From the sequence record PP759150: a stretch of DNA of 44,661 nt; one strand, written 5' to 3'. Position 1 is the stretch's first letter; every line of letters starts with the position of its first letter. The translations under genes and the position numbers were made by a program. The DNA is from Escherichia phage HH3. The notes below the pieces were generated by a model. That model was not told the DNA's origin and searched no databases. It was given only the letters and a program-made list of their open reading frames with translations. Positions 1 to 44,661 of the stretch are shown here, piece after piece.

Positions 1-59
1 AATCCGGGATTGCATAATACACGGCAGCGGGGTGCGGATTGCGGTCGTCGATGAACTAG

Positions 60-3327: not shown

Positions 3328-3486
3328 ATGGCACGTAAAGATGTTTGGGTATTGGCAATCTGGACCACCGCGGCTTTTATCGGCATGGTTATTTGCGAAT
3401 TGATATTGCCCGCCGCCATATGGACCGTGGTATATTGTCCACGGTCCACTAATCAGGAATTAATTAAATATGCACCCGCAAACTAA
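3328..3486 (+). CDS. small membrane protein (52 aa)
   Basis: RBS agaggag 8 nt upstream of ATG at 3328; hydrophobic core VWVLAIWTTAAFIGMVICELILPAAIWTVVY; 9-mer motif at 3299-3306 just upstream. Confidence 0.45.
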   Translation: MARKDVWVLAIWTTAAFIGMVICELILPAAIWTVVYCPRSTNQELIKYAPAN

Positions 3487-4612
3487 AATTACCGATGAGC
3501 AATTGATCGCAGAAATTCAGGCAGGGACTACGGTTAAAGAGATTGCGAAGAAATACGGCATTGCACTTCGAAATGTCTATATGCGCAAAGCCCGCCTATC
3601 GAAAAAGGGAATTGGTCACGGTAATGATGCCGTGATCCGTAAGCGAGTTGCAGATGGCTTCGGGGTTAAACGCGTGTCTGCCCTGGTGCGCGGTAATGGC
3701 GAAGAGGTCATGTCGTGGGTCATCACTGAGCAGGATAAGGAGCGCCAACTCGAAGCCATGCGCGCTGTGGTCGAGGGTATGAACAGCGAAATCACACCGG
3801 CAGCGCCCGTAAACGCCCCATGCCAGTATACCCAGGCGCTCGACTTGCTCAACCTGTACACTGTGTCCGACTTCCACCTGGGTATGCTGGCATGGGGCGA
3901 GGAGACTGGAGAAGATTGGGATATGGCGATCGCCGAAGACCTGTTCTACCGCTGGTTTGTCGAAGCCTTCGCACGCGCACCAGACGCAGGCACTGCCGTG
4001 ATCAACATCCTCGGGGATATGGCCCACTTTGATAGTCTCGATGCCGTCACCCCTGCCAGCGGGCACGTATTGGACGCCGACACCCGGTACCAGAAGTTGG
4101 TCCGCTACATGATTCGCATGGTGCGCAACGTCGTAGAACTTGCGCTGCAAAAACACTACAAAGTCAAACTGCTAATCGTCCAGGGTAATCATGACGAATC
4201 CGGTATGATTTGGCTTGCTGAGATGTTCAATACCTTGTATGAGAACGAGCCGCGCGTCGATGTGGACACGTCCCCGGACGTCTACAAAATGGTGCAGCAC
4301 GGTAAGACTACGCTATTTTTCCACCACGGGCACAAAGCGCGATTCGATGTTATCGAGCAGGTTATGATCGCTAAATTCAGACAGGCGTTCGGGGCGAGCG
4401 AATACAGCTACGCGCACGTAGGCCATTTGCACCACCAGAAGATTGTTGAATCCCGCAACATGATTGTTGAACAGCACCGGACGCTCGCAGCGAAAGACGC
4501 CTACGCCAGTCGTGGCGGTTGGATGTCCGGTCGCAGCGCAAACGTCATCACCTATAGCGCCAACTACGGAGAAGTAGCGCGCTTAACCATTAGCCCGGAA
4601 ATGTTGAAATGA
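3470..4612 (+). CDS. HTH domain fused to calcineurin-like metallophosphoesterase (Mre11/SbcD-like motif set), 380 aa
   Basis: N-terminal HTH-like TTVKEIAKKYGIALRNVY; phosphoesterase motifs SDFHLG, GDMAHFD, GNHDE, GHLHH in canonical order. Confidence 0.6.
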   Translation: MHPQTKITDEQLIAEIQAGTTVKEIAKKYGIALRNVYMRKARLSKKGIGHGNDAVIRKRVADGFGVKRVSALVRGNGEEVMSWVITEQDKERQLEAMRAVVEGMNSEITPAAPVNAPCQYTQALDLLNLYTVSDFHLGMLAWGEETGEDWDMAIAEDLFYRWFVEAFARAPDAGTAVINILGDMAHFDSLDAVTPASGHVLDADTRYQKLVRYMIRMVRNVVELALQKHYKVKLLIVQGNHDESGMIWLAEMFNTLYENEPRVDVDTSPDVYKMVQHGKTTLFFHHGHKARFDVIEQVMIAKFRQAFGASEYSYAHVGHLHHQKIVESRNMIVEQHRTLAAKDAYASRGGWMSGRSANVITYSANYGEVARLTISPEMLK

Positions 4613-9816: not shown

Positions 9817-9928
9817 CCCGTCCGCAGACCCCGACGAGGATTTGATGATTGACGTGAAAAATATGGAATGCGGGGCGAAGCTAAGGGCGCAGGTGCTGGA
9901 GTTGCAGCAAATAATTAAGGGGCCGTAA
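9698..9928 (+). CDS. Rz1-like o-spanin lipoprotein (76 aa), overlapping Rz in another frame
   Basis: Signal peptide with lipobox LSAC, Pro-rich mature part; out-of-frame overlap with Rz-like gene is the classic spanin arrangement. Confidence 0.6.
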   Translation: MLRALTALIVVLMLSACGSSNVPLMPLTESALRPPCKFDSPSADPDEDLMIDVKNMECGAKLRAQVLELQQIIKGP

Positions 9929-9941
9929 TGGCCCCTTTTTC
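9917..9941. terminator. bidirectional rho-independent terminator
   Basis: ggggcc-gtaat-ggcccc followed by TTTTT; lies between convergent genes. Confidence 0.7.
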
Positions 9942-9942
9942 G

Positions 9943-15966: not shown

Positions 15967-15989
15967 GGGGCCAGTACGGCCCCTTTTTT
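15967..15989 (+). terminator. rho-independent terminator after major tail gene
   Basis: ggggcc-agtac-ggcccc followed by TTTTTT. Confidence 0.75.
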
Positions 15990-16005
15990 ATTGGAGAATT
16001 ACATA

Positions 16006-16682: not shown

Positions 16683-17013
16683 TGGAGCGGGACAGGCGGG
16701 ACGTCCCGCTTTGTCCCGATCTGTCCCGCCCTCTAAAAACTGCATACCTATTCAGTTTTACTGCATAACCTGAAAGCGGGACGGCGGGACGTCCCGATCT
16801 GCCCCACCCCCCCAAAATGTGAATGGTTATGCAGTTTTCGTGCATAAAACAAACGGGACAAAAAGCGGGACAGAATGGGGCGGGACAAAGCGGGACGTCC
16901 CGCCGTCCCGCTCAGTGCTGCCGCGGGTTTCAGCCGATCGGGACAGGCGGGACAAAGCCCAGTCTTTCAGACTAGACGGGGGTCATTGGCCCCCCTCGTC
17001 TGAGACTGCATAA
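16683..17013. repeat. Repeat-dense non-coding element, copy A: about 17 CGGGAC(A) units in both orientations, three GCGGGACGTCCCGC palindromes, CTGCATAA repeats, terminal long hairpin (16960-17008)
   Basis: Read directly; last 187 bp (16827-17013) are a diverged copy of 44475-44661. Confidence 0.85.
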
Positions 17014-17077
17014 GATTTGTTTTAAATTCGCTGATACAATAACCCACGGCAACTGCATAAAAAGGGGGGACTGCATA

Positions 17078-19717
17078 ATGGCAGATCAGGCAGCGGGCAT
17101 TACGCTCAAGGCGGACGTCGCGCAAATTAAAACGGCGAATACTGTGCTGGACACATTTGCGCAGAAATCCGAGAACACAGAACAGAAAGTAAAGAAATTA
17201 AACGACACCCTCGGCAACACGAAAAAGGTCACTGGTGACGCCGCGGGTGGAATGGGGAAGTTAGCGACTGAATCGCAGCGCGCCGCCGACGGCATGACGA
17301 AACAGGAGCGACTCGCCAGCCGATTAGGCATGTCGACCAAAAACCTGGGATTCGCATCGCGAAACGCCGCATTTCAGTTACAGGATATCGCGGTAACGCT
17401 TGAAATGGGTATGCCGGTGCATCGAGTCATGCTTCAGCAGCTACCACAGCTTACTGGGGCGTTTGGCGGGTTGGGTAACACACTGCGTTATTTCGTCGGC
17501 ACCCTCGGCCCGTTAGGGGTTGGCCTCGCGGCATTAACGGCAACGCTAGGCGTAGGGGTGGCAATTACGTCCCGCGCAGAAAACCAGGTAGCGGCGCTCA
17601 ACAAGACGCTGGCGCTTTCCGGTAATATTTCTGGCCTCACCGCTAACCAGATCCTGGTGCTATCCGAGAACGCCGAGCGGATGGGCGGGTCATTCCGCAA
17701 GACGCGAGACACAATTCAGTCACTGGCGGCGGCGGGTGTGAAAGCGGGTGCGGACTTCGGCGGGTTAGCTAAGGTGGTTAATGACTTTGCAAAGACGTCG
17801 GGCCAGCCTATTGAGGACGTGGTATCGTCGGTGGCGAAATTGTCAAACGACCCAGTAGGCGGTTTGCGCGCACTGGCAGATAAGTATCACGTCGTAACCG
17901 AAGCGCAGATCCAGCAGGTGCAGTCATTGGTGAACGTGGGCCGCGAGACAGATGCGGTTGCGCTGGCGAACAAAACCGCCGCGGCGTCGTTTACCACTAT
18001 GACAAACGATATCAAGGCGAACATGGGTACGCTTGAGCGGTCGATGAACGTCGTCACATCGGCAGCTAAATCCATGTGGGACGCCATCCTGGATGTGGGC
18101 CGCGCTCAGTCCTCCAATGAGTCAGAGATGAAAGCGCGTGAATCCTTGCAGCGCATGACCACGGCTTACTATGCCGAGATGAAAGCGGTACACGCTGCCG
18201 GTGGGGTAATGACTGAAGCGCAGAAAGCACGTATTAACATGCTTTACAGCGAAATGGTCGCCCAGGAAAAAGTAGTGGCGTCGCTCACCCTGCGCAACCG
18301 CGCCGAGCGAGACAACGCCCGCGCCTCGGACGAATCAGCGAAGGAGAACGAGGAGGCCAACCGCGCTGCCCGCGACCGCGCCGCATTTGAGAAGGAATTC
18401 GCCACCAACGCGAAGAGGCGCTCCGACGAGATCGCCCGCCTCAATTTGCTGAATAAGCGCGGCGTGATTAGCGAGAAAGAGCTTGCCGAGGCGGTGAAGC
18501 AGGTAAACGAGCGCTACAAAGACCCCGCCCCGAAGAAGGCCGCCTCTGTACGGGTCGATGCCGGTACGAAAATGCTGGAAGTCGCACGGAGCGAACTGGC
18601 CCAGCTTCGAGAATCCGGCAAGCAGATCGAAGCCAACGCATCTGCGCAGACCCGCACGCAACGCGCTCAAGCGGCCTTAAACAAGCTGATCGCCGACCAT
18701 GAGCAGTTAATCGCTGCGAGCAAAGAAAGAGCGCTAACGGCAGCAGAGAAGCAGCAGATGGTGGAATTTGGACGCGTGAAGGAAGTCCGCGAGCAGATCG
18801 TCGAAGAAGCCAAATTGCTGGATGCGAAAGAGAAGCAGATCAAAGCCCACGCGCAGGTAGACGCTTTCCTCAAGAATCAGAACGCCGAAATAAAGGCCAC
18901 CGCTGCGGGCTACGCACTGTCTACGCGCGAAGCGGCTAACCTGCGCGAAGAATTGCAGCTAATCGACCGTCTGAAGAGGGTTGGCGCTAACGATACCGAT
19001 ATAGACAAGGCGGTGTCTAAGCTGCGGGAAGTGCAGGAGGCGCAGACCGGTGCTAACGCCTCGCTATGGGATGGCTTCAGCCACGGGCTTAAGGATAGCG
19101 TGGATGAAATGGGTAACGGATATACGCAGATGGCGTTGCTTACGAAATTCACGTTCAGCGCTATGCAAGACACGATGAACGAGTTTTTCGAGACCGGCAA
19201 GCTGAACGCAAAGGATATGGTTAAGTCCATCCTGAGCGAATTAATCAAGCTGGCTACCTCGCAAGCGTTCAAGTCCATCGTTGGCGCTTTCGGTGGCGGC
19301 GGCAAAAACGGATTGTTCGGCGCTATCTTCTCGGGCCTCACTAAGAATGCGGACGGCGGAGCGTACGCAGGAGGCAATCTCGCGGCCTATTCGGGGAAAG
19401 TGGTAAGCCAGCCCACCTTTTTCAGTTATGGCGTCCAGGCGTTCGCTAAGGGCGCAGGATTGATGGGTGAGGCTGGCCCCGAGGCCATCATGCCACTGAA
19501 GCGCGGGCCGGACGGGAGACTGGGCGTTGCCGCTTCTGGCGCAGGCGGAGGTATGGTCGTGACGACTAACGTTTACACGGGGGCCGGTAAAACAGACACC
19601 AGTGTGAGCGGCCCAGACCCCCGCACAGCGCAGGCGTTCGGCAAGCAAATCACCGAGGCGGTGAAGGCCGAGATCGTGAAAGCGACGAAACCGGGTGGAG
19701 TACTTTACAAACGATGA
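17078..19717 (+). CDS. tail tape measure protein (879 aa)
   Basis: Size, Ala/Gly-rich helical composition, position after G/GT and before tail-tip genes. Confidence 0.85.
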   Translation: MADQAAGITLKADVAQIKTANTVLDTFAQKSENTEQKVKKLNDTLGNTKKVTGDAAGGMGKLATESQRAADGMTKQERLASRLGMSTKNLGFASRNAAFQLQDIAVTLEMGMPVHRVMLQQLPQLTGAFGGLGNTLRYFVGTLGPLGVGLAALTATLGVGVAITSRAENQVAALNKTLALSGNISGLTANQILVLSENAERMGGSFRKTRDTIQSLAAAGVKAGADFGGLAKVVNDFAKTSGQPIEDVVSSVAKLSNDPVGGLRALADKYHVVTEAQIQQVQSLVNVGRETDAVALANKTAAASFTTMTNDIKANMGTLERSMNVVTSAAKSMWDAILDVGRAQSSNESEMKARESLQRMTTAYYAEMKAVHAAGGVMTEAQKARINMLYSEMVAQEKVVASLTLRNRAERDNARASDESAKENEEANRAARDRAAFEKEFATNAKRRSDEIARLNLLNKRGVISEKELAEAVKQVNERYKDPAPKKAASVRVDAGTKMLEVARSELAQLRESGKQIEANASAQTRTQRAQAALNKLIADHEQLIAASKERALTAAEKQQMVEFGRVKEVREQIVEEAKLLDAKEKQIKAHAQVDAFLKNQNAEIKATAAGYALSTREAANLREELQLIDRLKRVGANDTDIDKAVSKLREVQEAQTGANASLWDGFSHGLKDSVDEMGNGYTQMALLTKFTFSAMQDTMNEFFETGKLNAKDMVKSILSELIKLATSQAFKSIVGAFGGGGKNGLFGAIFSGLTKNADGGAYAGGNLAAYSGKVVSQPTFFSYGVQAFAKGAGLMGEAGPEAIMPLKRGPDGRLGVAASGAGGGMVVTTNVYTGAGKTDTSVSGPDPRTAQAFGKQITEAVKAEIVKATKPGGVLYKR

Positions 19718-28984: not shown

Positions 28985-29009
28985 AAGGGGCCATGCGGCC
29001 CCTTTTTTA
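28985..29009. terminator. bidirectional rho-independent terminator
   Basis: ggggcc-atgc-ggcccc followed by TTTTTT, A-run on the other side. Confidence 0.75.
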
Positions 29010-29582
29010 GTTTGAGTTTTCCCAGTCCATTTTGCGCCGCACCAGCGGGCTTTCGTAATATTCTTTACCCTCAACTTCCACTAAAGGCCAGTCATTAACA
29101 ATCACGTACGGCTCCGCGATATCTTCAATAACTCCGTGCGCGCTTTGCGGCCCTAACGACACACCAACCAGGATAACACCGGCAACGCGACGGGTCAGAT
29201 ATTCGCGAGCGCAACGAGCCTCTACCAGTCCGCGACGGATGCCGCTGGTGGCTTTAACCTCGTAGGTCCAGACGGCATCAATCATGTGCTCTTTGTAGTC
29301 GGGACCGGATTTTACCTTGCGCTTGCCGACCATGATAATATCGCCGCGGTCGATAGTGTTAGCGCTAAACAGGCCCGTACGCATGAGTAAGCCTTGCGGG
29401 ATACAACTTCGACCGCCTGCCTGCCCTTCGAGGTACATGCCTGCAAACATTTCGCCCAGCACACCGACAAGACGGCTTTGCTTGCACGCGTCAGACTTGT
29501 ATCGCCACTGGTCAAACTCGATGCTTGCTATCATTGCCGCCAGGTGGAATTGTTTACCAGATATTTCGTATTCGCCGTACAT
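29007..29582 (-). CDS. hypothetical protein (191 aa), possible PD-(D/E)xK-type nuclease
   Basis: RBS gaggga; weak GDII ... DAVWTYEVK motif pattern. Confidence 0.5.
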   Translation of the reverse strand: MYGEYEISGKQFHLAAMIASIEFDQWRYKSDACKQSRLVGVLGEMFAGMYLEGQAGGRSCIPQGLLMRTGLFSANTIDRGDIIMVGKRKVKSGPDYKEHMIDAVWTYEVKATSGIRRGLVEARCAREYLTRRVAGVILVGVSLGPQSAHGVIEDIAEPYVIVNDWPLVEVEGKEYYESPLVRRKMDWENSN

Positions 29583-29623
29583 TGTGGATCCCTCATTGAT
29601 GCGGGCCGAAGCCCGCGATTAAA

Positions 29624-30133
29624 TTATTTAAGTGCGCCAGTCACCAGTGTTTTTTCCATGTTACGGAAATCTTCCTGCGTCATGCAGATTTTCGATCCGT
29701 CTTCACCGGTTAGCACGACCATAGGCTGGACGTCCTGGGCTACAACTCCAAAATTGGCGGCTGTAACCGTTTTACCGGGGGTAAATGCGCCGCCTGTTTT
29801 GACGGGCCAACCTTTGAGGCTATCGAATTGTGCTGCCGTTGTATCGATCTGAATCTCGTCATGCACGGTCATGTAAGACTCGCCCAGCAGGGCGGCATAC
29901 GCCACCAGATCCACGATGTTATCTTCCTGGTGCTTACGGTGCTGGCGCACCAGCTTCAGGCAGATCAGGAAGGTCCAGGCTTCTTGCTCGGTAAGGTCGC
30001 GCCCGGTAAGCGCGTTAAACACGGCAGCGATTTGTTTAGCGCTGCGTTCTTCTTTCGCGTTGTCATAGCCGTTTTCTTTCCCGCGCTGTTCCATAGTGGT
30101 GGCGGCGTTTTTGCAGTATTCGTATGCTTTCAC
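29624..30133 (-). CDS. hypothetical protein (start uncertain, GTG 30133 or ATG 30094)
   Basis: Track ORF runs to 30214 but would read through the palindromic operator and hairpin; trimmed. Confidence 0.4.
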   Translation of the reverse strand: MKAYEYCKNAATTMEQRGKENGYDNAKEERSAKQIAAVFNALTGRDLTEQEAWTFLICLKLVRQHRKHQEDNIVDLVAYAALLGESYMTVHDEIQIDTTAAQFDSLKGWPVKTGGAFTPGKTVTAANFGVVAQDVQPMVVLTGEDGSKICMTQEDFRNMEKTLVTGALK

Positions 30134-30191
30134 AGTATTACCCTTTTTTTTTAGCGAGGGGGCGGTATTGCCCCCGACACGTTTACTATAG

Positions 30192-30213
30192 TGCAACCAA
30201 CCTATTGGTTGCA
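30192..30213. promoter_or_regulatory. Perfect palindrome TGCAACCAA-ccta-TTGGTTGCA (full dyad of the recurrent 9-mer)
   Basis: Read directly; overlaps the last codons of the HAD-like gene and precedes the next minus gene; followed by hairpin 30156-30178. Confidence 0.7.
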
Positions 30214-30672
30214 AGTGAATTTTGCAACGTTTATTGCGTAAATTTTCGGGACCAAATCACCACACGCCCGACGAATTGCCGCGATGTTCTTCTCGCAATC
30301 TTCAATGATGACCAGTTCAGACACGTCCGCGTAACATACCATTTTGAACACGGCGCACGCTTTAAACTCTGGCGGCGGGGTGTCGTCCAGCATGTGGCGC
30401 ATAAACAACCTGCCTACCGGGAAGACCTCCAATTGCTCGGCGGTGGTGTCCCAACATTCTCGCTGCCGGTTGGTCAGATACGCGATCTCGAAGCCTTGCT
30501 CTTTATACATGCGCAGTAGCGGCAGCATATCCATGTTAAGGTCTTCGCGGACGTGCGCTTTGTGCCACTTCGCCCAGAAGGTGGATTTAGTTTTTATGCC
30601 CGGCACCAGGTCGGCACGCGCATCGCTTGACCCATTAATAACGCCATCCAGATCACAAATCAGTAATTTCAT
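30202..30672 (-). CDS. HAD-superfamily hydrolase (phosphatase-like), 156 aa
   Basis: N-terminal motif LLICDLDGVI (HAD motif I DxDG). Confidence 0.65.
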   Translation of the reverse strand: MKLLICDLDGVINGSSDARADLVPGIKTKSTFWAKWHKAHVREDLNMDMLPLLRMYKEQGFEIAYLTNRQRECWDTTAEQLEVFPVGRLFMRHMLDDTPPPEFKACAVFKMVCYADVSELVIIEDCEKNIAAIRRACGDLVPKIYAINVAKFTCNQ

Positions 30673-30893
30673 TTCAATTCCTCAATAAGGGTGTATCGGG
30701 CGCTGCGCGCGGTTAAGGAGTTGCACACGAAATGGCAACGCCGAGTCATGACAAGCCAACCGGTGAGGTCAAGGCCCAGGATGTATTCGGGGCGAGACGC
30801 GCGCACCACACGATTGCGTCGCGGGTCGATGTTATAGTCTCTTAGCATTTGGTCTACGACCGCGGGGTCGCGGTCAACGATTAAGATATTCAT
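30669..30893 (-). CDS. hypothetical protein (74 aa)
   Basis: ORF, ATGA coupling with the HAD gene. Confidence 0.4.
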   Translation of the reverse strand: MNILIVDRDPAVVDQMLRDYNIDPRRNRVVRASRPEYILGLDLTGWLVMTRRCHFVCNSLTARSARYTLIEELK

Positions 30894-31359
30894 GTAACTC
30901 ACTCTCGCTCATTATTTCAATTTGTGCGCTGCCGATGGGCGGCGCTTCGTCAAATATTATTAATTGCTGGCACTTGTTATTGCTCGGACCGACTTCGCCG
31001 GTGGCGGCGTGAATGAATCTAATCCGCCAGTCCAGAAGAATTATCATATTGGCGGTATTCCGGGCCAGCTTCGCCCACTTAGTCGACGTGTCCTGATTCA
31101 GTAGCATGACGGTCCGGCGTCCGTGCGCTGCGCACTCGACCCACGGCAGCGGATCGGAATACGGCGGATTGCACCACTTCCACCCTTTCAACTCTGCCCA
31201 GTCCACATCAAGCGCGCTGTGCTCTGCCGTGAAGTAACGCGGTAGAAGGTGGTTGGCGTCGCTTGCCGCCATATCGTAACGGAATCGGTATTTCCGACGA
31301 AGCGGTTTAAATAACGCTGGCGGCGTGCGCCAGCTATCTTTTTGCTCATTCTTCGTCAT
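30874..31359 (-). CDS. DNA N6-adenine methyltransferase (phage Dam-type), 161 aa
   Basis: Catalytic motif NPPY in WKWCNPPYSDPLPW; N-terminal WRTPPALF pattern typical of small phage Dam enzymes. Confidence 0.8.
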   Translation of the reverse strand: MTKNEQKDSWRTPPALFKPLRRKYRFRYDMAASDANHLLPRYFTAEHSALDVDWAELKGWKWCNPPYSDPLPWVECAAHGRRTVMLLNQDTSTKWAKLARNTANMIILLDWRIRFIHAATGEVGPSNNKCQQLIIFDEAPPIGSAQIEIMSESELHEYLNR

Positions 31360-31804
31360 GGTCGGGGGCTATCGCGTACAGGGCGATATTGTTGCCTTTC
31401 TTCAGGACCCGCTGCACGCGCTTTGACTCCTCGGCGCTCATAGGGCGACCATGAAAATAGCCATTTGTGGGATTGCGCCACGCCACAAGCACCAGATCTT
31501 TACGGTCGATCTTAGACTGGCTACCCTTCGGACGCACGTACTCCTCGGCCCGTTTGCAATGCTCGCGCAGACCTTCGGCAGTGATGCGGTTTAGCGAGAC
31601 GGTGGTGGTGTATCCGGTGCGCTGCATAATACCCATCAATTTGAAAAGCAGTTCGAAGCGCTCCTCTAGCTCCTTGCGCATCTTTTCCTCGCCTTCATAG
31701 CTCGCCAGGTAGGTATCCGCCAACGCGTTCGCCCGTTCGGCTTGCTCGCGGGCTTCGAGGCATTGCGCGGCCCAGTAATCTTTTTCTTCTTGTAAAATTT
31801 TCAT
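31346..31804 (-). CDS. hypothetical protein (152 aa)
   Basis: ORF in replication block. Confidence 0.5.
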   Translation of the reverse strand: MKILQEEKDYWAAQCLEAREQAERANALADTYLASYEGEEKMRKELEERFELLFKLMGIMQRTGYTTTVSLNRITAEGLREHCKRAEEYVRPKGSQSKIDRKDLVLVAWRNPTNGYFHGRPMSAEESKRVQRVLKKGNNIALYAIAPDHDEE

Positions 31805-32047
31805 TTATTTAATCTCCGTAGTGCGAATCTCTTTGCGTGGGATAAATTTGCCGTCCATCTCCACCCAACAGACTCCGTATCGCCATTGGGTGTTACGACC
31901 TGTTTGCTCGGCGTACACGGTCTTGCATCCGTAGCGTTCCGTGTAGTAAATAGCTGCGGTAGGTACGCAAACACAAACGGCAATCATGAGGGTGAGTATC
32001 ACCCAAAATCTAAGGTCGCCGTCGTAGTCAAAAAATAATGATTTCAT
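31805..32047 (-). CDS. small membrane protein (80 aa)
   Basis: RBS ggagac; hydrophobic segment FWVILTLMIAVCVCVPTAAIYY. Confidence 0.5.
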   Translation of the reverse strand: MKSLFFDYDGDLRFWVILTLMIAVCVCVPTAAIYYTERYGCKTVYAEQTGRNTQWRYGVCWVEMDGKFIPRKEIRTTEIK

Positions 32048-32065
32048 CGTTATGTCTCCAGGTAT

Positions 32066-32091
32066 TAAAAAGGGCGTCCAACCGGACACCC
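32066..32091 (-). terminator. rho-independent terminator (minus strand)
   Basis: Minus-sense gggtgtcc-ggtt-ggacgccc followed by TTTTT; 9-mer motif at 32101-32109 immediately upstream. Confidence 0.6.
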
Positions 32092-32110
32092 TCAATATAA
32101 TGCAACCAAT

Positions 32111-32434
32111 TTACGCATAAAAGTTAGGGTCGCGCGCTACGTCTACCAGATACAGGTTACTAATGCGGTTGCCGTAGTGGCCTGGTGTGCGCTGACGGCA
32201 CACTACGGCATAGCCTGGAGGGATTGTATTGCCAGTCTCAATAATCCACGCCACGCGTGCGCCAGACAGCGTCTTACCGTTGTATTCGATACGTGTTCCG
32301 CCATCGGCAGTGTTAAGGTTGCCAATCTTGCAGCCTGTGGACTTCAGGCGAATGACGCCGGTCTTGCTGTCGTATGAAAAAAGCTGATTGGTCATTGCCA
32401 CTGAAAAGTCGATGGCGTCGAATGTAGTATTCAT
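32111..32434 (-). CDS. HNH_3-like small protein (107 aa), possibly degenerate homing-endonuclease-like
   Basis: Pattern YNGKTLSGARVAWIIETGNTIPPGYAV...PGHYGNRISNLYLV resembles HNH_3 endonucleases but the canonical DH-NG core is altered. Confidence 0.45.
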   Translation of the reverse strand: MNTTFDAIDFSVAMTNQLFSYDSKTGVIRLKSTGCKIGNLNTADGGTRIEYNGKTLSGARVAWIIETGNTIPPGYAVVCRQRTPGHYGNRISNLYLVDVARDPNFYA

Positions 32435-33141
32435 TTTAAATTTTCCTCGTTAACCGCTATCGCGAAGCCGCGCGGGGTGAGTGAGCGGATTAATTTTGTA
32501 CGAGCGGATTTACCACCGAGGCGACTATACTGTTTCGAGTACCCTTTTTCAACGAAAACAGGTTTCTTCTCTGGCATACGGAAGCCGTTGCCGGTCCATA
32601 AGCAGGTCAGCTTCGGATATGAATCGCGGGCGTTGATGTATTCAGGGAATAACGGGTGTACGTCATCCTCTGGCAAATAGCCGCCATACTCCCACGGGTC
32701 AAACGAGTGGTCCGGCTTACGCCATTGAGTGGAGAGCACGCTGCGCGGATTCTCAATCATATATGGCACTTCGAAGAAATCGCCCAGGTAAGCGGCGATC
32801 TTCGCGGTGCGCACCGCCTTAAGCTGGAAGGCAGGGTCGCGGGCGCGTTTGCGCGGGAAAGCTGGCGCGCCGCTCACCGCCAGATCAGTACACGGCGGGA
32901 ATGCATAGATAATATCCGGCGTGCCGAAGTCGCCATTCATCGCGCGGTCCACGAAGTCCAGGTCAATAAACTCATTGCGATATCGGATACCGCGACCATA
33001 GATACGGTAATCAAGGTAAGACCCGTGATCGGCTTCGGAGTAGTTGAAGCAATAACACTTATGCCCCATCTCGGCAGCACGCTCAATCATCAAGCCGCTG
33101 CCGTCAAACAATGACCAGATTGTCATTTTAGCAATAGTCAT
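32431..33141 (-). CDS. compact DNA C5-cytosine methyltransferase-like protein (236 aa) with variant motifs
   Basis: Motifs in C5-MTase order: I SLFDGSG, IV FPPCTD (PC-T instead of PC-Q), VI ENP (instead of ENV), VIII-like QWRKP; about 100 aa shorter than typical C5 MTases. Confidence 0.55.
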   Translation of the reverse strand: MTIAKMTIWSLFDGSGLMIERAAEMGHKCYCFNYSEADHGSYLDYRIYGRGIRYRNEFIDLDFVDRAMNGDFGTPDIIYAFPPCTDLAVSGAPAFPRKRARDPAFQLKAVRTAKIAAYLGDFFEVPYMIENPRSVLSTQWRKPDHSFDPWEYGGYLPEDDVHPLFPEYINARDSYPKLTCLWTGNGFRMPEKKPVFVEKGYSKQYSRLGGKSARTKLIRSLTPRGFAIAVNEENLK

Positions 33142-34562
33142 TTGCGCGCCTTTTTAGCTTTCATGTACTCCATCAAGTCGTCCTGTATATCTCGCTTACT
33201 GTCGCGACGCTCGGCGACCAGTTCGTCCAGTGTCCCGCGCGCCTGGATAATATAGACGAATACTGGACGGGGGTGTCCGGCTTGCATCTGGCGAACCGGC
33301 CCGATACGCTCCACGATCTGCGAAAAGTGCTCAAAGTTCCAGGTGTCTGAGAAGATAGCAAGGTGGTGTCCGCCGTCCTGCAGGTTGAGGCCGTGGCCCG
33401 CCGATGCCGGGTGCGCAAACATGATGGGGATCTCGCCCCTGTTCCACGCTTCCATATCCTTATTGCCCTGCTTGCCCTTGCCCAACGCAACGCCGTGCGG
33501 GAATTTCTTCTTGAGACGCGCCAGATCATGCTTGTACTGGTACGCGACGAGCAACGGTGCGCCGTTCAACTCCTCCACGATACTTTCCAGCGCGTCCAGT
33601 TTAGCGTCGTGAATTTTCACCCATTCGTCGGTCCGTTCGCCGTCTTCGTCGACCTTATACACGGCCCCGGAAGCAAGCTGAAGGCACTTAATGGTCTTCG
33701 AAGCAGCGTTCGCCGCCTCCACCGTTCCGCTTTCCAGTTCGGCAAATAGCTCCGCTTCGAACTGGTCATAAATCTTGCGGGCTTTCTTCGGCAGGTCCAC
33801 TACAACCGGCGTATAGATTGGCTTGTCACATCCGAAGTATTCAGCCGCATCAACGGTGAGCGACACGTCGGACAGGCGTTGTTGTATTTCTTTCTCGGAG
33901 TTCTTAAGCGGGGCGTGCTGCATAGAAAAGCTGCCAGGCTTAACAGGCTTGCTAATAAACCAGCGATCCGTGAATGCCTTATAACTACTGCCGAGACGTT
34001 CGCCGCCATCGACAAACCACGTCTGACCCCACAGGTCTTTCAGTCCGTTTGGTGCGGGTGTGCCGGTGAGGTTAATCCATCGCTTGACGTGCTTATGGGC
34101 AATCGCCGCCAGTGCGCGGGCGCGCTTACTCCCCTGCTTGCTTCTATAGCCTTTCAGCTTAGTGGATTCATCGGCAACAACGACCGTAAAGGGCCACGCA
34201 TCGCCGTAATAGTCAACCAGCCACTCAACTACATCATAGTTAACACAAACCACGTTAGCGTCGCTCTCGAGAGCAGCAATGCGGTCCTTCTCTGGTCCTG
34301 TGCCGTCTACTACCAGCAGGGCGGGGAAGCGCCATTTCTCCTGCTCCGGGGGCCATGTACCGGACGCAACGCGCAGCGGGGCCAGCACCAGTACGCGGTC
34401 CTCCTGGTTGGACAGGATACCAGTCTGGAACATTTTATTCAGTGCCCACATGGTCGCGCCAGTTTTACCCGACCCCATTGTCGCCCATATATTGCATCGC
34501 TTATGCTTGAGGATGAACGCGGTTATCAACTTCTGATATTCGCGACGTCGGAAACGTGCCAT
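33138..34562 (-). CDS. SNF2/DEAD-like superfamily 2 helicase (about 474 aa; start at ATG 34562)
   Basis: Walker A MGSGKTGAT, DExx-like VVADEST, C-terminal helicase domain; track ORF over-extended to 34652. Confidence 0.75.
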   Translation of the reverse strand: MARFRRREYQKLITAFILKHKRCNIWATMGSGKTGATMWALNKMFQTGILSNQEDRVLVLAPLRVASGTWPPEQEKWRFPALLVVDGTGPEKDRIAALESDANVVCVNYDVVEWLVDYYGDAWPFTVVVADESTKLKGYRSKQGSKRARALAAIAHKHVKRWINLTGTPAPNGLKDLWGQTWFVDGGERLGSSYKAFTDRWFISKPVKPGSFSMQHAPLKNSEKEIQQRLSDVSLTVDAAEYFGCDKPIYTPVVVDLPKKARKIYDQFEAELFAELESGTVEAANAASKTIKCLQLASGAVYKVDEDGERTDEWVKIHDAKLDALESIVEELNGAPLLVAYQYKHDLARLKKKFPHGVALGKGKQGNKDMEAWNRGEIPIMFAHPASAGHGLNLQDGGHHLAIFSDTWNFEHFSQIVERIGPVRQMQAGHPRPVFVYIIQARGTLDELVAERRDSKRDIQDDLMEYMKAKKARK

Positions 34563-34566
34563 ATCT

Positions 34567-34785
34567 TTATTCCGCCTTTTTCCAGACTTCTGTCTCACTG
34601 TTCCAGTTCCTTTTTGTGGCGTCGTAGTTGGTGCGGTGACCGATGTGCACACCCGTCGCCCGGAAGCTCTTAAATTTTTGCCAGCACACCGTTAACGGCA
34701 GCGGGTTATTCATGCCTGCGATAAACCATACGCGATCGCCTGGTTTGCATTCGCCCAGTGTGGTGAGTCGATAATGTTCTTTCAT
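34567..34785 (-). CDS. hypothetical protein (72 aa)
   Basis: RBS gggaga 9 nt upstream of ATG 34785. Confidence 0.4.
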   Translation of the reverse strand: MKEHYRLTTLGECKPGDRVWFIAGMNNPLPLTVCWQKFKSFRATGVHIGHRTNYDATKRNWNSETEVWKKAE

Positions 34786-34796
34786 CGTCATGTCTC

Positions 34797-34821
34797 CCAA
34801 AAATGGCGGGACAAGCCCGCC
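34797..34821 (-). terminator. hairpin GGCGGGACAAGCCCGCC with T-run on the minus strand
   Basis: Contains the same GCGGGACA unit as the iteron elements. Confidence 0.5.
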
Positions 34822-34828
34822 GTATTAA

Positions 34829-35002: not shown

Positions 35003-35042
35003 TTCTAAAATCCTCGATAGTGCTAACCTGCTCACTATACTG

Positions 35043-41789: not shown

Positions 41790-42119
41790 ATGAATGTAAA
41801 CGACGCAATCGAAATGTTAACGAAGACTGTTAGCAGTGAAACAAGCCGGTCCTGGGCTTATACCGATGCCGTTGGGGCGGTGTTATTTGAGGTCGAGCGC
41901 CTGCGCAGTGTAGAAAAAGAATTACGCGCCAGGCTGGAATTGCTCAACGGTACGGCGGCGAGCAAGCTACAAAAACACAATGAAGAAATGGAAGAATACA
42001 AAAAACAGGTTATCCGTTTACGTGATGAGGGGAAGTCATGGGCAATGATCGCGGAGTTGACAGGAATTAATCAGAGCACCGTGCGATCCTGGGTACGCAA
42101 TAACAAAACTTCTAAGTAA
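41790..42119 (+). CDS. HTH DNA-binding protein (109 aa), candidate transcription regulator
   Basis: C-terminal helix-turn-helix-like WAMIAELTGINQSTVRSW; first gene of the rightward early operon. Confidence 0.55.
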   Translation: MNVNDAIEMLTKTVSSETSRSWAYTDAVGAVLFEVERLRSVEKELRARLELLNGTAASKLQKHNEEMEEYKKQVIRLRDEGKSWAMIAELTGINQSTVRSWVRNNKTSK

Positions 42120-42129
42120 GGCCACGGCA

Positions 42130-44394
42130 ATGAGCTTAATTAAATTCGCTGTAACACGACCCGCTAAAAAAGGCGAAAAAGCCAGGGCGGAAAACTTCCA
42201 GATGACAACTGATGAATTTTTCGAATTTATCAATGACGCGAAAGAAATCTCATCGGTGCACATCAACAAGACCGAGGATAAAGCCGAGTATGCGCGCCGC
42301 AAGCGCAAGGCCGATGGCATCGTGGCATATACCAGTGACGGCCTACGCCGTAAGACCAGCGCGGTGGACCGCTCGATCCTGTTCTTTGATATTGACCGCA
42401 CCGACACTCGCACCTTGCGCCGCTGCCGTAAGGCTTTCATCGACGCGGGCCTGGAACACGTATTCCACACCACAACCGGCGACCGTCACCCACTGAAAGG
42501 CGGCACGCGTTGCGCCCGTTTCCTGGTGTTGACGGACAAGCCTGTCCCGGCGGAAGACCTGGGCCGTGTCCAGTATGCGCTATTACACCAACTTGGTCTG
42601 TCAGATGTGGACTTCGACGATTGCACGAAAGACACAAACCGCCTGATGTACCTGCCGCACCAGCAATCGGTTATTAAGTGCCACTACGGCAAACGTGCCA
42701 ATGTGCGGCGTCTGCTCCGCCTGGCGGACAAGCTGGGGGTGGAGAAAGAGGAAGTACGCCGCGAACTAACCCAGGGCGACGACGAAGTGGCTGACGGCAT
42801 TCTTGATTGGTGCTTTCAGGCTGGATTCGAGCCACTATCGTCCGGGCGTGGCTATGAAGTGCCGTGTCCGAACGAACATCTGCACAGCGGCGAAGGGTCG
42901 ACGGCTATCATGGTCAAGGATGGCGAGATCCGTTTCAAGTGTATGCACACCGGAAACGAGTGTTGCTCGGAACTGAACCGACACCAGCACCTGGCGCTAC
43001 GTCTTATCGGGATCCCGGACCACCTGAACGTCGAGCCACACAATATGTCCCGTAAGCAAATCGCCGCCATCCTGCCAGGTCTGGACGACGAGGAAGTCGA
43101 ATCCTTATATGATCACATTGTTGATGCGGTTGGCGACGGCGAAGAATATGGCGTGTGCACCGATGCGGATCTGGATAACGAGCCGGTTGCGCTGTTCAGT
43201 AAGCACGACCCGATCATCGAAGGTCTGATTAACTTCAAATCGACCTGGTATATGGCGGGCGAGTCGAACATCGGCAAGTCCTTCTATGTGCTGGGGCAGA
43301 TGGGCGCGGTTGCCGCGGGTATCCCGTTTGGCGGTGCGAAGGTCGTCCAGTCTCATTGCTTCTATTTCGACGCGGAAGGCGGCGAAGCCTCCAACCAGCG
43401 CAAAGAAGCATTGCAGATTAAATACGAGCACGACCTCGACAAGCTGCACATTATCGATCTGCAGTCACGCGGATGGGATATCACCAGCAAGTCCGGTTTG
43501 CGCGAAGTTATCAGCTATATCAACCGCACTGCTAACGGCGAGCCGGTCGGCCTGGTGGCGTTCGACTCACTCAACCAGACTGTTGCGCTGCGGTCCGCCG
43601 AGGCTAAACCGTTCGACGAGAACAACGCCAGCGATATGGGTGAAGTAGTCAAAGCGCTGAAAGCCATTGCGGAAAACACGGGCGGCAGTGCGGGCGTCAT
43701 CCACCACCCGGCGAAGGGTGCAAACGGCAGCAGATCCCCGCGTGGGTCCGGTGCGCTTCATGGCGCTGTCGATTCCGCTTTCTTCCTGGAACAGCCGGAC
43801 GACAACCAGCCGGGGCAATTGAACCTTTATCACGAAAAGTCACGTAACGGCATCAAGCAAGCGCCGCGTGGCTTCGTCCTGCTCAAGTGCAAGGTGGCGG
43901 TAGATCTCCGCAAGTCAGAAGCGTTCGCGTCGCACCAGTCCACCAGCACCGGGCCAGACTTCGGTGACGTAGTTGCTGGTTGGGACGTCAAACCAATTGC
44001 GTCCACCCCGCGCGACGAGACTTTATACCTCGTACCGGTCGCCCTGGCACCGTTCGCTATAGAACAGGCGAAGGCCGCAGGAAAAGCCGCAGTTAAGGAA
44101 GAGAACACCGCCGGACCGCGCACCGAAAAAGAGAAAGTGCTTTATGCGGCCCTGGAAAAACTGATGGAAGATAACCCGGACCATACTGGTTTCAGTAAAT
44201 CGGCAATCGTCCGCCAGGCGGGACTCGCAAAGGGTGGCACTTCGACGAAGGCAATAGACGATATGGTCGAGCGCGGCGTGATTGGTTTCTATACAGACCC
44301 GCACACCGGGGCCATATATGGGTCATCGAATTTAGTCATTAAATCGGATATCCCCATTACACTTTCTGCGACCGATGACGACCTGAAAGATTAA
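42130..44394 (+). CDS. primase-helicase (AEP-type primase-like N-terminus, zinc-binding region, P-loop ATPase C-terminus), 754 aa
   Basis: LFFDIDRTD acidic motif, Cys cluster CPNEHLHSGEGS...CMHTGNECC, Walker A GESNIGKS, Walker B LVAFDSLNQ. Confidence 0.7.
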   Translation: MSLIKFAVTRPAKKGEKARAENFQMTTDEFFEFINDAKEISSVHINKTEDKAEYARRKRKADGIVAYTSDGLRRKTSAVDRSILFFDIDRTDTRTLRRCRKAFIDAGLEHVFHTTTGDRHPLKGGTRCARFLVLTDKPVPAEDLGRVQYALLHQLGLSDVDFDDCTKDTNRLMYLPHQQSVIKCHYGKRANVRRLLRLADKLGVEKEEVRRELTQGDDEVADGILDWCFQAGFEPLSSGRGYEVPCPNEHLHSGEGSTAIMVKDGEIRFKCMHTGNECCSELNRHQHLALRLIGIPDHLNVEPHNMSRKQIAAILPGLDDEEVESLYDHIVDAVGDGEEYGVCTDADLDNEPVALFSKHDPIIEGLINFKSTWYMAGESNIGKSFYVLGQMGAVAAGIPFGGAKVVQSHCFYFDAEGGEASNQRKEALQIKYEHDLDKLHIIDLQSRGWDITSKSGLREVISYINRTANGEPVGLVAFDSLNQTVALRSAEAKPFDENNASDMGEVVKALKAIAENTGGSAGVIHHPAKGANGSRSPRGSGALHGAVDSAFFLEQPDDNQPGQLNLYHEKSRNGIKQAPRGFVLLKCKVAVDLRKSEAFASHQSTSTGPDFGDVVAGWDVKPIASTPRDETLYLVPVALAPFAIEQAKAAGKAAVKEENTAGPRTEKEKVLYAALEKLMEDNPDHTGFSKSAIVRQAGLAKGGTSTKAIDDMVERGVIGFYTDPHTGAIYGSSNLVIKSDIPITLSATDDDLKD

Positions 44395-44407
44395 ATTTTG
44401 CGCGCAT

Positions 44408-44468
44408 TGGTTGCCATTTTGAGTGTTTTTAGCCGGTCGCATTGGTTGCCGTGTAGTGTAAATATAAT
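44408..44468 (+). promoter_or_regulatory. Two direct CATTGGTTGCC copies followed by a consensus TATAAT hexamer
   Basis: ttggttgcc at 44408-44416 and 44442-44450, tataat at 44463-44468. Confidence 0.45.
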
Positions 44469-44474
44469 GCATAG

Positions 44475-44661
44475 TTATGCAATAAAACTGCATAAAGTAG
44501 GCGGGACAAAAAGCGGGACAGACCAGGGGCGGGACAAAGCGGGACAGCACCCCGTCCCGCCCCGGATGACGCGGCCTGGAGAGGAGCGGGACAGCGGGAC
44601 AGCACCCCAGTCTTTCAGACTAGACGGGGGTCAACGGCCCCCCTCGTCTGAGACTGCATAA
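44475..44661. repeat. Repeat element copy B: six or more CGGGACA units plus terminal hairpin (44608-44656) ending in CTGCATAA at the window edge
   Basis: Aligns with 16827-17013 over 187 bp; hairpin arms identical and only the loop differs by two bases. Confidence 0.85.

What the first reader, a model, noticed from the sequence alone, without database searches (positions are those of the whole stretch)
16683..17013. Duplicated GCGGGAC-iteron plus hairpin element; one copy splits the chaperone GT gene from the tape measure gene
A 187-bp element occurs twice (16827-17013 and 44475-44661), with the first copy extended upstream to 16683. Both carry dense arrays of the unit CGGGAC(A) in both orientations (copy A has about 17 units and three perfect GCGGGACGTCCCGC palindromes about 90-105 bp apart), repeated CTGCATAA boxes, and an identical roughly 49-nt imperfect hairpin. 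The two copies differ in the hairpin loop (tcattgg versus tcaacgg) while the arms are the same, which argues for selection on structure rather than recent duplication. Copy A sits in a 395-bp non-coding gap between GT and tape measure genes that are normally adjacent. Copy B directly follows the primase-helicase gene. The ends ttatgcag and ctgcataa are reverse complements, so an 8-bp terminal inverted repeat is possible. Candidate roles: replication origins bound by the primase-helicase, binding arrays for a phage regulator, or a small non-autonomous mobile element. I cannot tell these apart from sequence.
Basis: seen in the sequence. Interest (0 to 1): 0.85.

Follow-up and report, generated by a model that had tools for sequence, protein, structure and literature searches.

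The report
Duplicated iteron-and-hairpin phage replication origin
The two repeat-rich non-coding elements of this E. coli phage (genus Dhillonvirus) are most likely its replication origin and an enlarged second copy, because the same CGGGACA repeats and a G/C hairpin sit directly after helicase or primase genes in many unrelated phages.

Summary
The window is a circularly permuted Dhillonvirus genome (HK578/SO-1-like).

- **Element A (16683-17013)** fills the 395-bp gap between the tail chaperone gene and the tape measure gene.
- **Element B (44475-44661)** lies 80 nt after the primase-helicase gene and runs across the window end.
- **Shared features:** CGGGAC(A) units in both orientations, TGCATAA boxes and a 49-nt hairpin.
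- **Conservation:** both elements are present in every relative examined. They are absent from E. coli genomes and plasmids.
- **Prior record:** the SO-1 GenBank record (2009) already marks them as repeat regions A and B.

The new evidence comes from IMG/VR. Dense CGGGACA arrays directly abut the stop codon of a helicase or primase gene in 46 of 77 unrelated viral loci, against 2 of 40 sparse matches. The commonest layout is six forward and two reverse units. A perfect hairpin occurs more often in the arrays than in control DNA.

I conclude that B is an iteron-type origin for the primase-helicase, comparable to SaPI ori, P4 ori/crr and the pRN1 stem-loop. A is an expanded second copy. The binding protein is not identified, and nothing has been tested experimentally. 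The mobile-element, terminator and packaging-site readings are not supported. A transcriptional role remains a live rival.

In passing, I found the octamer ACGGCA(A/G)C 12-fold over-represented and strand-biased.

The parts
42130..44394 (+). Primase-helicase gene (754 aa). It has a RepA-like AAA_25 helicase core and a C-terminal domain that may be a winged helix.
   Evidence: Pfam AAA_25 E=1.4e-19. PHROG 3228 'replicative helicase-primase'. The single-sequence AF2 model of the C-terminal 111 aa has helix-helix-helix-strand-strand order but pLDDT 47.
41790..42119 (+). 109-aa HTH protein encoded 10 nt upstream of the primase-helicase gene. It is a candidate binder of the CGGGAC units.
   Evidence: HTH_23 and Sigma70_r4_2 hits. 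The family is confined to Dhillonvirus-like phages. The C-terminal 60 aa are invariant and the N-terminal 45 aa are hypervariable. AF2 pLDDT 87.7 shows a long helix plus a C-terminal HTH.
44406..44451 (+). Two ATTGGTTGCC boxes directly after the primase-helicase stop codon.
   Evidence: (family D16). The same box recurs at sigma-70-like promoters genome-wide and is dense after the eiAU primase-helicase gene.
44463..44495 (+). TATAAT hexamer, followed by the 14-bp palindrome TGCATAGTTATGCA and a TGCATAA half-box 21 bp later. The segment is AT-rich.
   Evidence: It resembles the E. coli carAB P2 operator pair TGAATTAATATGCA-N7-TGAGTGAATATTCT.
44502..44559 (+). Element B, first iteron cluster: 4 forward CGGGACA units (44502, 44514, 44530, 44540) and 1 reverse unit (44554).
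44587..44601 (+). Element B, second iteron cluster: 2 forward units.
44608..44656 (+). Element B hairpin (49 nt).
   Evidence: -26.2 kcal/mol, z -3.7. The exact 23-nt 5' arm is found in IMG/VR only in Dhillonvirus-like contigs, twice in most of them.
1..28 (+). Continuation of element B across the window end: a TGCATAA box inside the -10-like TTGCATAAT (9-17), then the octamer ACGGCAGC (21-28).
16683..16768 (+). Element A, module 1: 2 forward and 3 reverse CGGGAC units including the palindrome at 16696-16709, then the box pair TGCATACCTATTCA-N7-TGCATAA.
   Evidence: (D5, I3). HK578 annotates the palindrome as a rho-independent terminator, but the terminator scan finds none here.
16769..16847 (+). 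Element A, module 2: 2 forward and 1 reverse units, then the box pair TGAATGGTTATGCA-N7-TGCATAA.
16854..16954 (+). Element A, module 3, the counterpart of B: 4 forward and 2 reverse units, a 28-nt spacer, then 2 forward units.
   Evidence: (D11, D2).
16960..17008 (+). Element A hairpin (49 nt).
   Evidence: -27.6 kcal/mol, z -4.2. The arms are invariant in relatives and the apical loop varies.
17007..17078 (+). Region from the hairpin to the tape measure ATG: a TGCATAA box, the invariant extended -10-like TGATACAAT (17031-17039), ACGGCAAC (17046-17053), and two more TGCATAA boxes.

Best explanation
**Proposed role.** Element B is the phage's replication origin, the cis-acting site at which the RepA-like primase-helicase encoded just upstream is recruited. 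Element A is an enlarged second copy, with three iteron modules instead of one. It would serve as a second origin or as a cis-acting replication enhancer.

**Proposed mechanism (inferred).**
1. A phage DNA-binding protein coats the CGGGACA iterons. The protein is either the C-terminal domain of the primase-helicase or the 109-aa HTH protein co-transcribed with it.
2. The adjacent G/C-rich hairpin marks or becomes the site of helicase loading or priming.
3. The AT-rich TGCATAA-box segments on either side melt or bind an architectural factor. The boxes look like ArgR operator pairs.

**What is shown.** The anatomy, its conservation, and its tight linkage to helicase and primase genes across unrelated phages.

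**What is inferred.** Binding, melting and origin activity.
For: **Cross-phage linkage.** A scan of IMG/VR for three closely spaced TGTCCCG units returned at least 120 stretches, mostly not Dhillonvirus.
- Among loci with dense arrays (6 or more units in 300 nt), 46 of 77 carry a helicase or primase ORF whose stop codon abuts the array. Among sparse matches the figure is 2 of 40.
- In 36 of 36 tblastn-detected cases the array lies on the 3' side of the gene. The first unit is usually -150 to +70 nt from the stop codon.

**Shared layout.** The commonest arrangement is 6 forward and 2 reverse units over 130-180 bp. Window B has 6+1 and module 3 of A has 6+2.

**Hairpin.** A perfect hairpin occurs in 49 of 76 dense arrays against 47 of 328 control regions. 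It is often a C-run, a TAAA or TTTA loop, then a G-run, placed between forward and reverse units.

**Upstream genes.** They come from several replication families:
- Prim-Pol plus AAA_25
- DnaB
- DUF5906
- VapE
- PriCT plus DUF3987
- Toprim

**Position.** The first iteron of B starts 108 nt after the primase-helicase stop codon. A small HTH gene precedes the helicase gene.

**Conservation.** Both elements are present in all Dhillonvirus records and in a divergent clade with 65% protein identity.

**Published parallels.**
- SaPI ori has 6-12 short iterons immediately downstream of rep, read by a C-terminal winged helix of the helicase (PMC9371898).
- The pRN1 origin is a stem-loop downstream of a repressor/primase-helicase operon (PMC4234260).
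- From my own knowledge, P4 has two separated iteron regions, ori and crr.
Against: - There is no experimental evidence of origin activity or protein binding.
- **The binder is unidentified.** The window's primase-helicase C-terminus clusters with those of eiAU and Salmonella phage SaI_NFG_5579, which lack CGGGAC arrays. It is not significantly related to the shared C-terminal domain of the 36 array-linked AAA_25 proteins (E=0.052 in a database of 70).
- **Base composition.** The spacer between the two iteron clusters is G/C-rich. In SaPI origins the centre is AT-rich.
- **Position of A.** A sits inside the late operon, and both copies point the same way as the downstream genes, with conserved -10-like hexamers. 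That fits a transcriptional role as well.
- **GC skew.** The cumulative minimum is near 41.5 kb, 3 kb from B, although skew here follows gene direction.
Confidence: 0.65

Rival explanations
1. The arrays are binding sites for a phage transcription regulator, for example the 109-aa HTH protein. In this reading they control, insulate or activate weak promoters just downstream of each hairpin, one before the first rightward gene cluster and one before the tape measure and distal tail genes.
For: - Both copies lie upstream of a gene start and in the same orientation as the genes.
- A -10-like hexamer follows each hairpin: the invariant TGATACAAT in A, and TTGCA(T/A)AAT in B.
- The palindromic CGGGACGTCCCG suits a dimeric HTH protein.
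- The HTH family and the arrays co-occur only in Dhillonvirus-like phages.
- The TGCATAA box pairs look like operators.
- A canonical terminator after the major tail gene (15967-15990) would make a promoter before the tape measure gene useful.
Against: - This reading does not explain why the same heptamer arrays abut helicase or primase genes of many families in unrelated phages.
- Sixteen sites upstream of one promoter is excessive.
- B is followed by another 190 nt with further promoters before the first gene.
- The promoter scan finds no more sigma-70-like sites than shuffles do.
Confidence: 0.18
2. The element acts as RNA. The hairpin would be a processing site, a 3'-end stabiliser or an unusual terminator that ends the primase-helicase and chaperone transcripts.
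For: - The hairpin is stable on the plus strand.
- Two variants keep pairing only through G-U on the plus strand.
- There is one compensatory change, AGACG/CGTCT to GGACG/CGTCC.
- HK578 annotates a terminator in A.
Against: - No U-tract follows the hairpin, and the terminator scan finds nothing at these sites although it finds the canonical terminator at 15967.
- There is no Rfam match.
- No covarying pair is found across 18 distinct sequences.
- Units in both orientations and as palindromes point to recognition of double-stranded DNA.
Confidence: 0.07
3. The arrays are terminase small-subunit binding sites, that is, packaging (pac) sites.
For: - Two clusters of short repeats flanking a central region recall the P1 pac site (my own knowledge).
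- Dhillonviruses package by the headful mechanism (PMC9022532, PMC13348001).
- The window begins exactly at the end of B, and one GenBank record (NC_073077.1) begins inside A.
Against: - Two pac sites 17 kb apart would be odd.
- The small terminase subunit is of the P22 gp3 / Sf6 type (weak Pfam hits in a related contig). From my own knowledge, the pac site of such phages lies in or near the terS gene.
- Record starts at a repeat are what an assembler produces.
- The cross-phage linkage is to helicase genes, not terminase genes.
Confidence: 0.04
4. The 187-bp unit is a small non-autonomous mobile element with 8-bp terminal inverted repeats.
For: It occurs twice in unrelated contexts. TTATGCAG and CTGCATAA are reverse complements in A.
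Against: - It is absent from E. coli genomes and plasmids.
- It is fixed at the same two loci in all relatives, with no empty site.
- There is no target-site duplication.
- The terminal repeat is 7 of 8 in B, and in most relatives of A it is CTATTCA rather than TTATGCA.
Confidence: 0.02

Closest known systems
SaPI replication origin (the pri-rep-ori module of staphylococcal pathogenicity islands)
   Same: - Six to twelve short iterons lie immediately downstream of the helicase ORF, in both orientations around a central region.
- The helicase is a self-loading initiator that reads the iterons with a C-terminal winged helix (PMC9371898).
- Window B has 7 heptamer units starting 108 nt after the stop codon.
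   Different: - The helicase here is the RepA-like AAA_25 type, whereas the paper describes SaPI Rep as a 3'-to-5' helicase.
- The centre is G/C-rich with a hairpin, not AT-rich.
- The same heptamer recurs across many helicase families, whereas (my own knowledge) SaPI iterons differ between islands.
- There is a second copy far from the helicase gene.
Phage P4 ori and crr, bound by the alpha primase-helicase
   Same: - One multifunctional primase-helicase has a C-terminal winged-helix origin-binding domain.
- Two separated iteron regions lie kilobases apart (my own knowledge; P4 alpha is also described in PMC4234260).
   Different: - By my recollection the P4 iterons are the octamer TGTTCACC.
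- P4 alpha has a Toprim primase (PMC4234260) and, from my own knowledge, an SF3 helicase.
- No conserved hairpin is described for P4.
pRN1 plasmid origin (the orf56/orf904 operon plus a downstream stem-loop)
   Same: - A small DNA-binding protein gene is followed by a primase-helicase gene and then by a stem-loop required for replication.
- The authors note similar arrangements in some phages (PMC4234260).
   Different: - pRN1 has no iterons.
- Its stem-loop is about 100 nt.
- Its helicase is SF3 with a Prim-Pol domain, and Pfam finds no Prim-Pol domain in the window protein.
SPP1 oriL and oriR
   Same: A virulent siphophage with two copies of an origin-like repeat region, one in the replication gene cluster and one in the late region (my own knowledge, not checked here).
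   Different: Different repeats (AB boxes), and a separate origin-binding protein (G38P) with a DnaB-type helicase and loader.
Regions A and B in the Sodalis phage SO-1 GenBank record
   Same: These are the orthologous elements, annotated in 2009 as direct, inverted and palindromic repeats with mutual similarity.
   Different: It is annotation only.

Membership tests
Iteron origin next to a self-loading helicase gene (SaPI type) | Six to twelve short (5-7 bp) repeats | tested here: met
   B has 7 exact CGGGAC units and module 3 of A has 8.
Iteron origin next to a self-loading helicase gene (SaPI type) | Repeats immediately downstream of the helicase ORF | tested here: met
   In B the first unit is 108 nt after the stop codon at 44394. 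This is not true of A. The same adjacency holds in 46 of 77 unrelated dense arrays.
Iteron origin next to a self-loading helicase gene (SaPI type) | At least two iterons on each side of a central AT-rich region, pointing in opposite directions | tested here: not met
   The order is 4 forward, 1-2 reverse, a G/C-rich spacer, 2 forward, then the hairpin. The AT-rich DNA lies on the flanks.
Iteron origin next to a self-loading helicase gene (SaPI type) | C-terminal winged helix of the helicase binds the iterons | tested here: inconclusive
   The AF2 single-sequence model has pLDDT 47 with helix-helix-helix-strand-strand order. The HMM of the array-linked C-terminal domain scores the window at E=0.052 in a database of 70. 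Binding cannot be tested with these tools.
Iteron origin next to a self-loading helicase gene (SaPI type) | Supports initiation of replication | not testable with these tools
   Needs marker-frequency analysis or a plasmid origin assay.
P4 ori/crr | Two separated iteron regions in one genome | tested here: met
   A and B are 17 kb and 27.6 kb apart on the circle.
P4 ori/crr | Toprim primase plus SF3 helicase (alpha protein) | tested here: not met
   Pfam finds only AAA_25.
pRN1-type stem-loop origin | Small regulator gene, then a primase-helicase gene, then a downstream stem-loop | tested here: met
   HTH gene 41790-42119, primase-helicase gene 42130-44394, hairpin 44608-44656.
pRN1-type stem-loop origin | Prim-Pol domain in the replication protein | tested here: not met
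   No PF09250 hit in the window protein. The domain is present in the array-linked protein of L154.
Intrinsic terminator (as annotated in HK578) | G/C stem-loop followed directly by a T-run | tested here: not met
   The scan finds the canonical terminator at 15967 but nothing in A or B.
Miniature inverted-repeat mobile element | Terminal inverted repeats, target-site duplication, variable presence, many copies | tested here: not met
   The terminal repeat is exact only in A. The element is fixed at two loci in all relatives and absent from E. coli genomes and plasmids.
ArgR operator (ARG box pair), for the TGCATAA boxes only | Two imperfect palindromes of the type TGAAT-N4-ATTCA, 21 bp apart | tested here: inconclusive
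   Most relatives have TGAATAGTTATGCA-N7-TGCATAA, and the window's own B has TGCATAGTTATGCA. MG1655 carAB P2 has TGAATTAATATGCA-N7-TGAGTGAATATTCT. That carAB P2 is an ArgR operator is my own knowledge. No scoring matrix was applied and no binding data exist.
Known RNA families (Rfam) | Match at the gathering score | tested here: not met
   0 matches in the whole window.

The most novel reading that the evidence does not exclude
CGGGACA iterons plus a G/C hairpin would form one portable origin cassette. It would be shared by phages of very different hosts (locus G+C 46-71%) and used by at least six helicase or primase families, through a DNA-binding module not yet recognised. Dhillonviruses would carry two such cassettes that both fire or cooperate. 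The strand-biased octamer ACGGCA(A/G)C, one copy of which follows each hairpin, would be the recognition or start site of the primase.
Probability: 0.25. Interest if true: 0.8.

Novelty: new variant of a known kind. Interest (0 to 1): 0.6.

Why it matters
- **A testable origin for a widely used phage group.** Dhillonviruses are common E. coli phages used in the BASEL collection, in defence-system studies and in therapy work. I found no description of their origin or transcription signals. A defined origin candidate gives a direct target for marker-frequency, binding and plasmid-replication tests, and a site to avoid or exploit in phage engineering.
- **A possible marker for origins in other phages.** The same heptamer array and hairpin follow helicase and primase genes of several families in many uncultured phages. 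This suggests a sequence signature that could locate origins in metagenomic phage genomes. It also raises the question of how one short motif serves such different replication proteins.
- **The second copy.** Its position between the tail chaperone and tape measure genes offers a natural test of whether a phage can use two origins, or an origin plus an enhancer.

Tried and rejected
- **Rfam:** nothing in the whole window.
- **Promoter and terminator scans:** no more sites than shuffles, and none in the elements.
- **Literature:** searches for Dhillonvirus promoters, origins, transcriptomes, SO-1, the motif strings and iterons found no description of these elements. The search for ACGGCAGC returned only primer sequences.
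- **Cohesive end:** the 10-nt end ATCTTAAGGG reported for phage EE09 is not present in the window.
- **GC skew:** it follows gene direction and cannot place an origin.
- **Primase-helicase C-terminus:** the homologue search returned one fragment. The single-sequence AF2 model was too poor for a fold search.
- **HTH protein:** the fold search gave only generic HTH matches, E above 0.8. A profile comparison with the array-linked C-terminal domain found nothing, probability 0.2.
- **PDB sequence search of the primase-helicase:** only RSF1010 RepA, at E=0.41.
- **Hairpin covariation:** none found by RNAalifold.
- **Max-order Markov k-mer scoring:** uninformative, because the sub-words are themselves enriched.
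- **Record start positions:** I considered inferring genome ends from where GenBank records begin. Indels make the offsets unreliable for all but one record (NC_073077.1), so I dropped this.
- **Locus L167:** a very G/C-rich contig with a huge GGGAC array next to an FtsK-like gene. It is probably a different system.

Full report
**What the window is.** The 44,661-bp window is a complete, circularly permuted genome of a Dhillonvirus, an HK578/SO-1-like siphophage of E. coli. It is about 90% identical at the nucleotide level to known members and is not itself in the phage collection. Relatives show that the sequence runs on from the last base to the first.

Gene order, and the KarlBarth annotation:

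| Coordinates | Strand | Content |
|---|---|---|
| 212 to about 29,000 | + | small genes, lysis genes, terminase, head and tail genes |
| 29,007-41,566 | - | replication genes |
| 41,790-44,394 | + | a 109-aa HTH protein and a 754-aa primase-helicase |

- Element A (16683-17013) fills the 395-bp gap between the stop codon of the tail chaperone T part (16682) and the tape measure ATG (17078).
- Element B (44475-44661) begins 80 nt after the primase-helicase stop codon.
- The two 187-bp stretches are 81.6% identical.
- A has 16 exact CGGGAC units (10 forward, 6 reverse) and B has 7. Together they hold 23 of the genome's 39 units.
- GCGGGAC occurs 26 times against 9.2 expected, and TGCATAA 18 times against 5.9. 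No shuffle reached either count.
- The 49-nt hairpin folds at -27.6 and -26.2 kcal/mol, well below shuffled controls.

Corrections to the finding:
- Only two of the three 14-bp palindromes are perfect.
- The proposed 8-bp terminal inverted repeat is exact only in A.
- The pair of elements is not a new sighting. The 2009 GenBank record of Sodalis phage SO-1 annotates 'region A' and 'region B' as repeat regions similar to each other. I found no paper that discusses them.

**Anatomy.** A consists of three tandem modules of about 90-105 bp. Each has a CGGGAC array with a palindromic core, followed by an AT-rich pair of boxes: a 14-bp palindrome TG(C/A)ATA-NN-TAT(G/T)CA, then TGCATAA 21 bp later. 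The third module is the counterpart of B. Both read in this order:
1. the box pair
2. four forward units
3. one or two reverse units
4. a G/C-rich spacer of 26-28 nt
5. two forward units
6. the hairpin
7. a TGCATAA box
8. a -10-like hexamer
9. the octamer ACGGCA(A/G)C

B is additionally flanked by ATTGGTTGC boxes. These recur at sigma-70-like promoters across the genome.

**Conservation.**
- Both elements are present in every Dhillonvirus examined: about 158 GenBank records and 15 IMG/VR contigs.
- A divergent clade whose primase-helicase is only 65% identical also has both.
- The units and hairpin arms are nearly invariant, while spacers and the apical loop vary.
- Frame-breaking indels show the region is non-coding.
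- The element is absent from 5,426 complete E. coli genomes and 72,556 plasmids. With its fixed position, this removes the mobile-element idea.

More distant relatives share the primase-helicase but lack CGGGAC arrays and the hairpin:
- Edwardsiella phage eiAU has many GCAACCAAC boxes after the gene.
- Salmonella phage SaI_NFG_5579 has two copies of GTGAATAGTTATGCA after the gene.

**The decisive comparison.** I scanned IMG/VR for three closely spaced TGTCCCG units. The scan returned at least 120 stretches, most of them not Dhillonvirus, with locus G+C from 35% to 74%.

- **Linkage to replication genes.** Among loci with dense arrays (six or more units in 300 nt), 46 of 77 have a helicase or primase ORF whose stop codon abuts the array. 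Among sparse, chance-like matches the figure is 2 of 40. Of the 31 dense arrays with no such gene found, 18 lie within 1.5 kb of the locus end, where the gene could be cut off.
- **Side and distance.** In all 36 cases found by tblastn, the array lies on the 3' side of the gene. The first unit is usually between -150 and +70 nt from the stop codon.
- **Layout.** The commonest arrangement is six forward and two reverse units over 130-180 bp, the same as in the window.
- **Hairpin.** A perfect hairpin occurs in 49 of 76 dense arrays against 47 of 328 control regions. It is often a C-run, a TAAA or TTTA loop and a G-run, placed between forward and reverse units.
- **Upstream genes.** They belong to several replication families:
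  - Prim-Pol plus AAA_25
  - AAA_25 with a DnaB N-terminal domain
  - DnaB
  - DUF5906
  - VapE
  - PriCT plus DUF3987
  - Toprim

I can see no reason for a promoter, a terminator or a packaging site to track helicase and primase genes this closely.

**Interpretation.** The arrangement matches known origins that sit next to a self-loading initiator helicase.
- In SaPIs, six to twelve penta- or hexanucleotide iterons lie immediately downstream of rep. They are read by a winged helix in the C-terminal domain of the helicase (PMC9371898).
- In plasmid pRN1, a small repressor gene and a primase-helicase gene are followed by a stem-loop that is required for replication. The authors note similar arrangements in phages (PMC4234260).
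- P4, from my own knowledge, has two separated iteron regions, ori and crr.

I therefore read B as the origin for the RepA-like primase-helicase (AAA_25). I read A as an expanded second copy, either a second origin or a cis-acting enhancer. Variants of the distal iteron pair are shared between A and B copies in different genomes. This suggests sequence exchange between the two copies.

**What remains open.** The binding protein is not identified.
- **Primase-helicase C-terminus.** The last 90 residues look like a winged helix by sequence pattern, but the model is poor. This domain clusters with those of eiAU and SaI_NFG_5579, which lack the arrays. It is not significantly related to the C-terminal domain shared by 36 array-linked AAA_25 proteins.
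- **The 109-aa HTH protein.** It occurs only in phages that have the arrays. Its DNA-binding half is invariant while its N-terminus is hypervariable. That makes it an equally good candidate in Dhillonviruses.
- **The same facts keep a transcriptional role alive.** Both copies face downstream genes, a conserved -10-like hexamer follows each hairpin, and the box pairs look like operators.
- **Hairpin structure.** Support is modest: no covarying pair in 18 distinct sequences, one compensatory change in the divergent clade, and two variants that keep pairing only through G-U on the plus strand.

**TGCATAA boxes.** The phage box pair is TGAATAGTTATGCA-N7-TGCATAA in most relatives; the window's own B has TGCATAGTTATGCA. 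It has the same half-sites and 21-bp register as the carAB P2 operator of E. coli K-12, TGAATTAATATGCA-N7-TGAGTGAATATTCT. From my own knowledge, that operator is bound by ArgR. The same box occurs twice after the primase-helicase gene of the distant Salmonella phage. Host ArgR, or a conserved phage protein, may bind here. This is a lead, not a result.

**Verdict.** The finding is real and conserved, and it has already been noted in one database record. The best reading is an iteron-and-hairpin origin with a duplicated copy, at confidence about 0.65. It is a new variant of a known kind. The cross-phage recurrence of the same heptamer module is the part a specialist would find surprising.

Noticed in passing
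Whole window; for example 21-28 and 17046-17053: The octamer ACGGCA(A/G)C occurs 51 times against 4.2 expected (maximum 13 in 100 shuffles), 40 on the plus strand and 11 on the minus strand. It is the most frequent 8-mer in the genome and occurs in all three reading frames and in intergenic DNA. The bias does not flip in the minus-strand gene block. The enrichment is conserved in KarlBarth, eiAU and Salmonella phage SaI_NFG_5579. One copy follows each hairpin by about 40 nt. It could be a primase site or a Chi-like signal. E. coli Chi occurs only 5 times.
   Followed up: partly
Window 60, 151, 182, 700, 3299, 11091, 11105, 21748, 26634, 30193, 30205, 32102, 35059, 38683, 38699, 41591, 44407, 44442: There are 18 TTGGTTGC boxes. 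Many supply the -35 hexamer (TTGCAT or TTGCTG) or overlap the start of sigma-70-like promoters, including those of minus-strand accessory genes within the late region. The same box is among the commonest 8-mers in eiAU and is dense after its primase-helicase gene.
   Followed up: partly
Window 16742-16768, 16820-16847, 44468-44495; L126 positions 10-50 (minus strand): The TGCATAA boxes form pairs that resemble ArgR operator pairs (compare carAB P2). GTGAATAGTTATGCA occurs twice, 21 bp apart, right after the primase-helicase gene of the distant Salmonella phage SaI_NFG_5579.
   Followed up: partly
Window 1 and 44661: The window is linearised exactly at the 3' boundary of the sequence shared by A and B. 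GenBank record NC_073077.1 starts inside element A. This is what an assembler breaking at a two-copy repeat would produce, so the window ends need not be biological termini.
   Followed up: partly
L147 4464-4990; L129 42121-43000: The junction between the tail chaperone and tape measure genes is an insertion hot spot. The divergent clade carries a minus-strand 126-aa gene with its own TTGGTTGC-box promoter region between the chaperone gene and element A. eiAU has a gap of about 1.1 kb with a minus-strand ORF at the same place.
   Followed up: partly
Window 41790-42119: In the HTH protein family the N-terminal 45 residues are hypervariable, while the coiled coil and HTH are invariant across both clades. 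This suggests a fixed DNA target and a fast-evolving partner or target of host defence.
   Followed up: partly
Window 3470-4612: A 380-aa phosphoesterase / DNA repair exonuclease-like gene (PHROG 704) has no counterpart in phage KarlBarth but is present in other Dhillonviruses. It is an accessory gene.
   Followed up: no
Window 9920-9942, 15967-15990, 28987-29009: Three near-identical canonical terminators, GGGGCC-loop-GGCCCC followed by a T-run, lie after the spanin, major tail and last late genes.
   Followed up: no
L167 8200-9650: A 71% G+C viral contig has about 45 CGGGAC/GTCCCG units over 1.4 kb next to a gene with a weak FtsK/SpoIIIE hit. It is probably a different DNA-translocase recognition array, not the helicase-linked module.
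   Followed up: no
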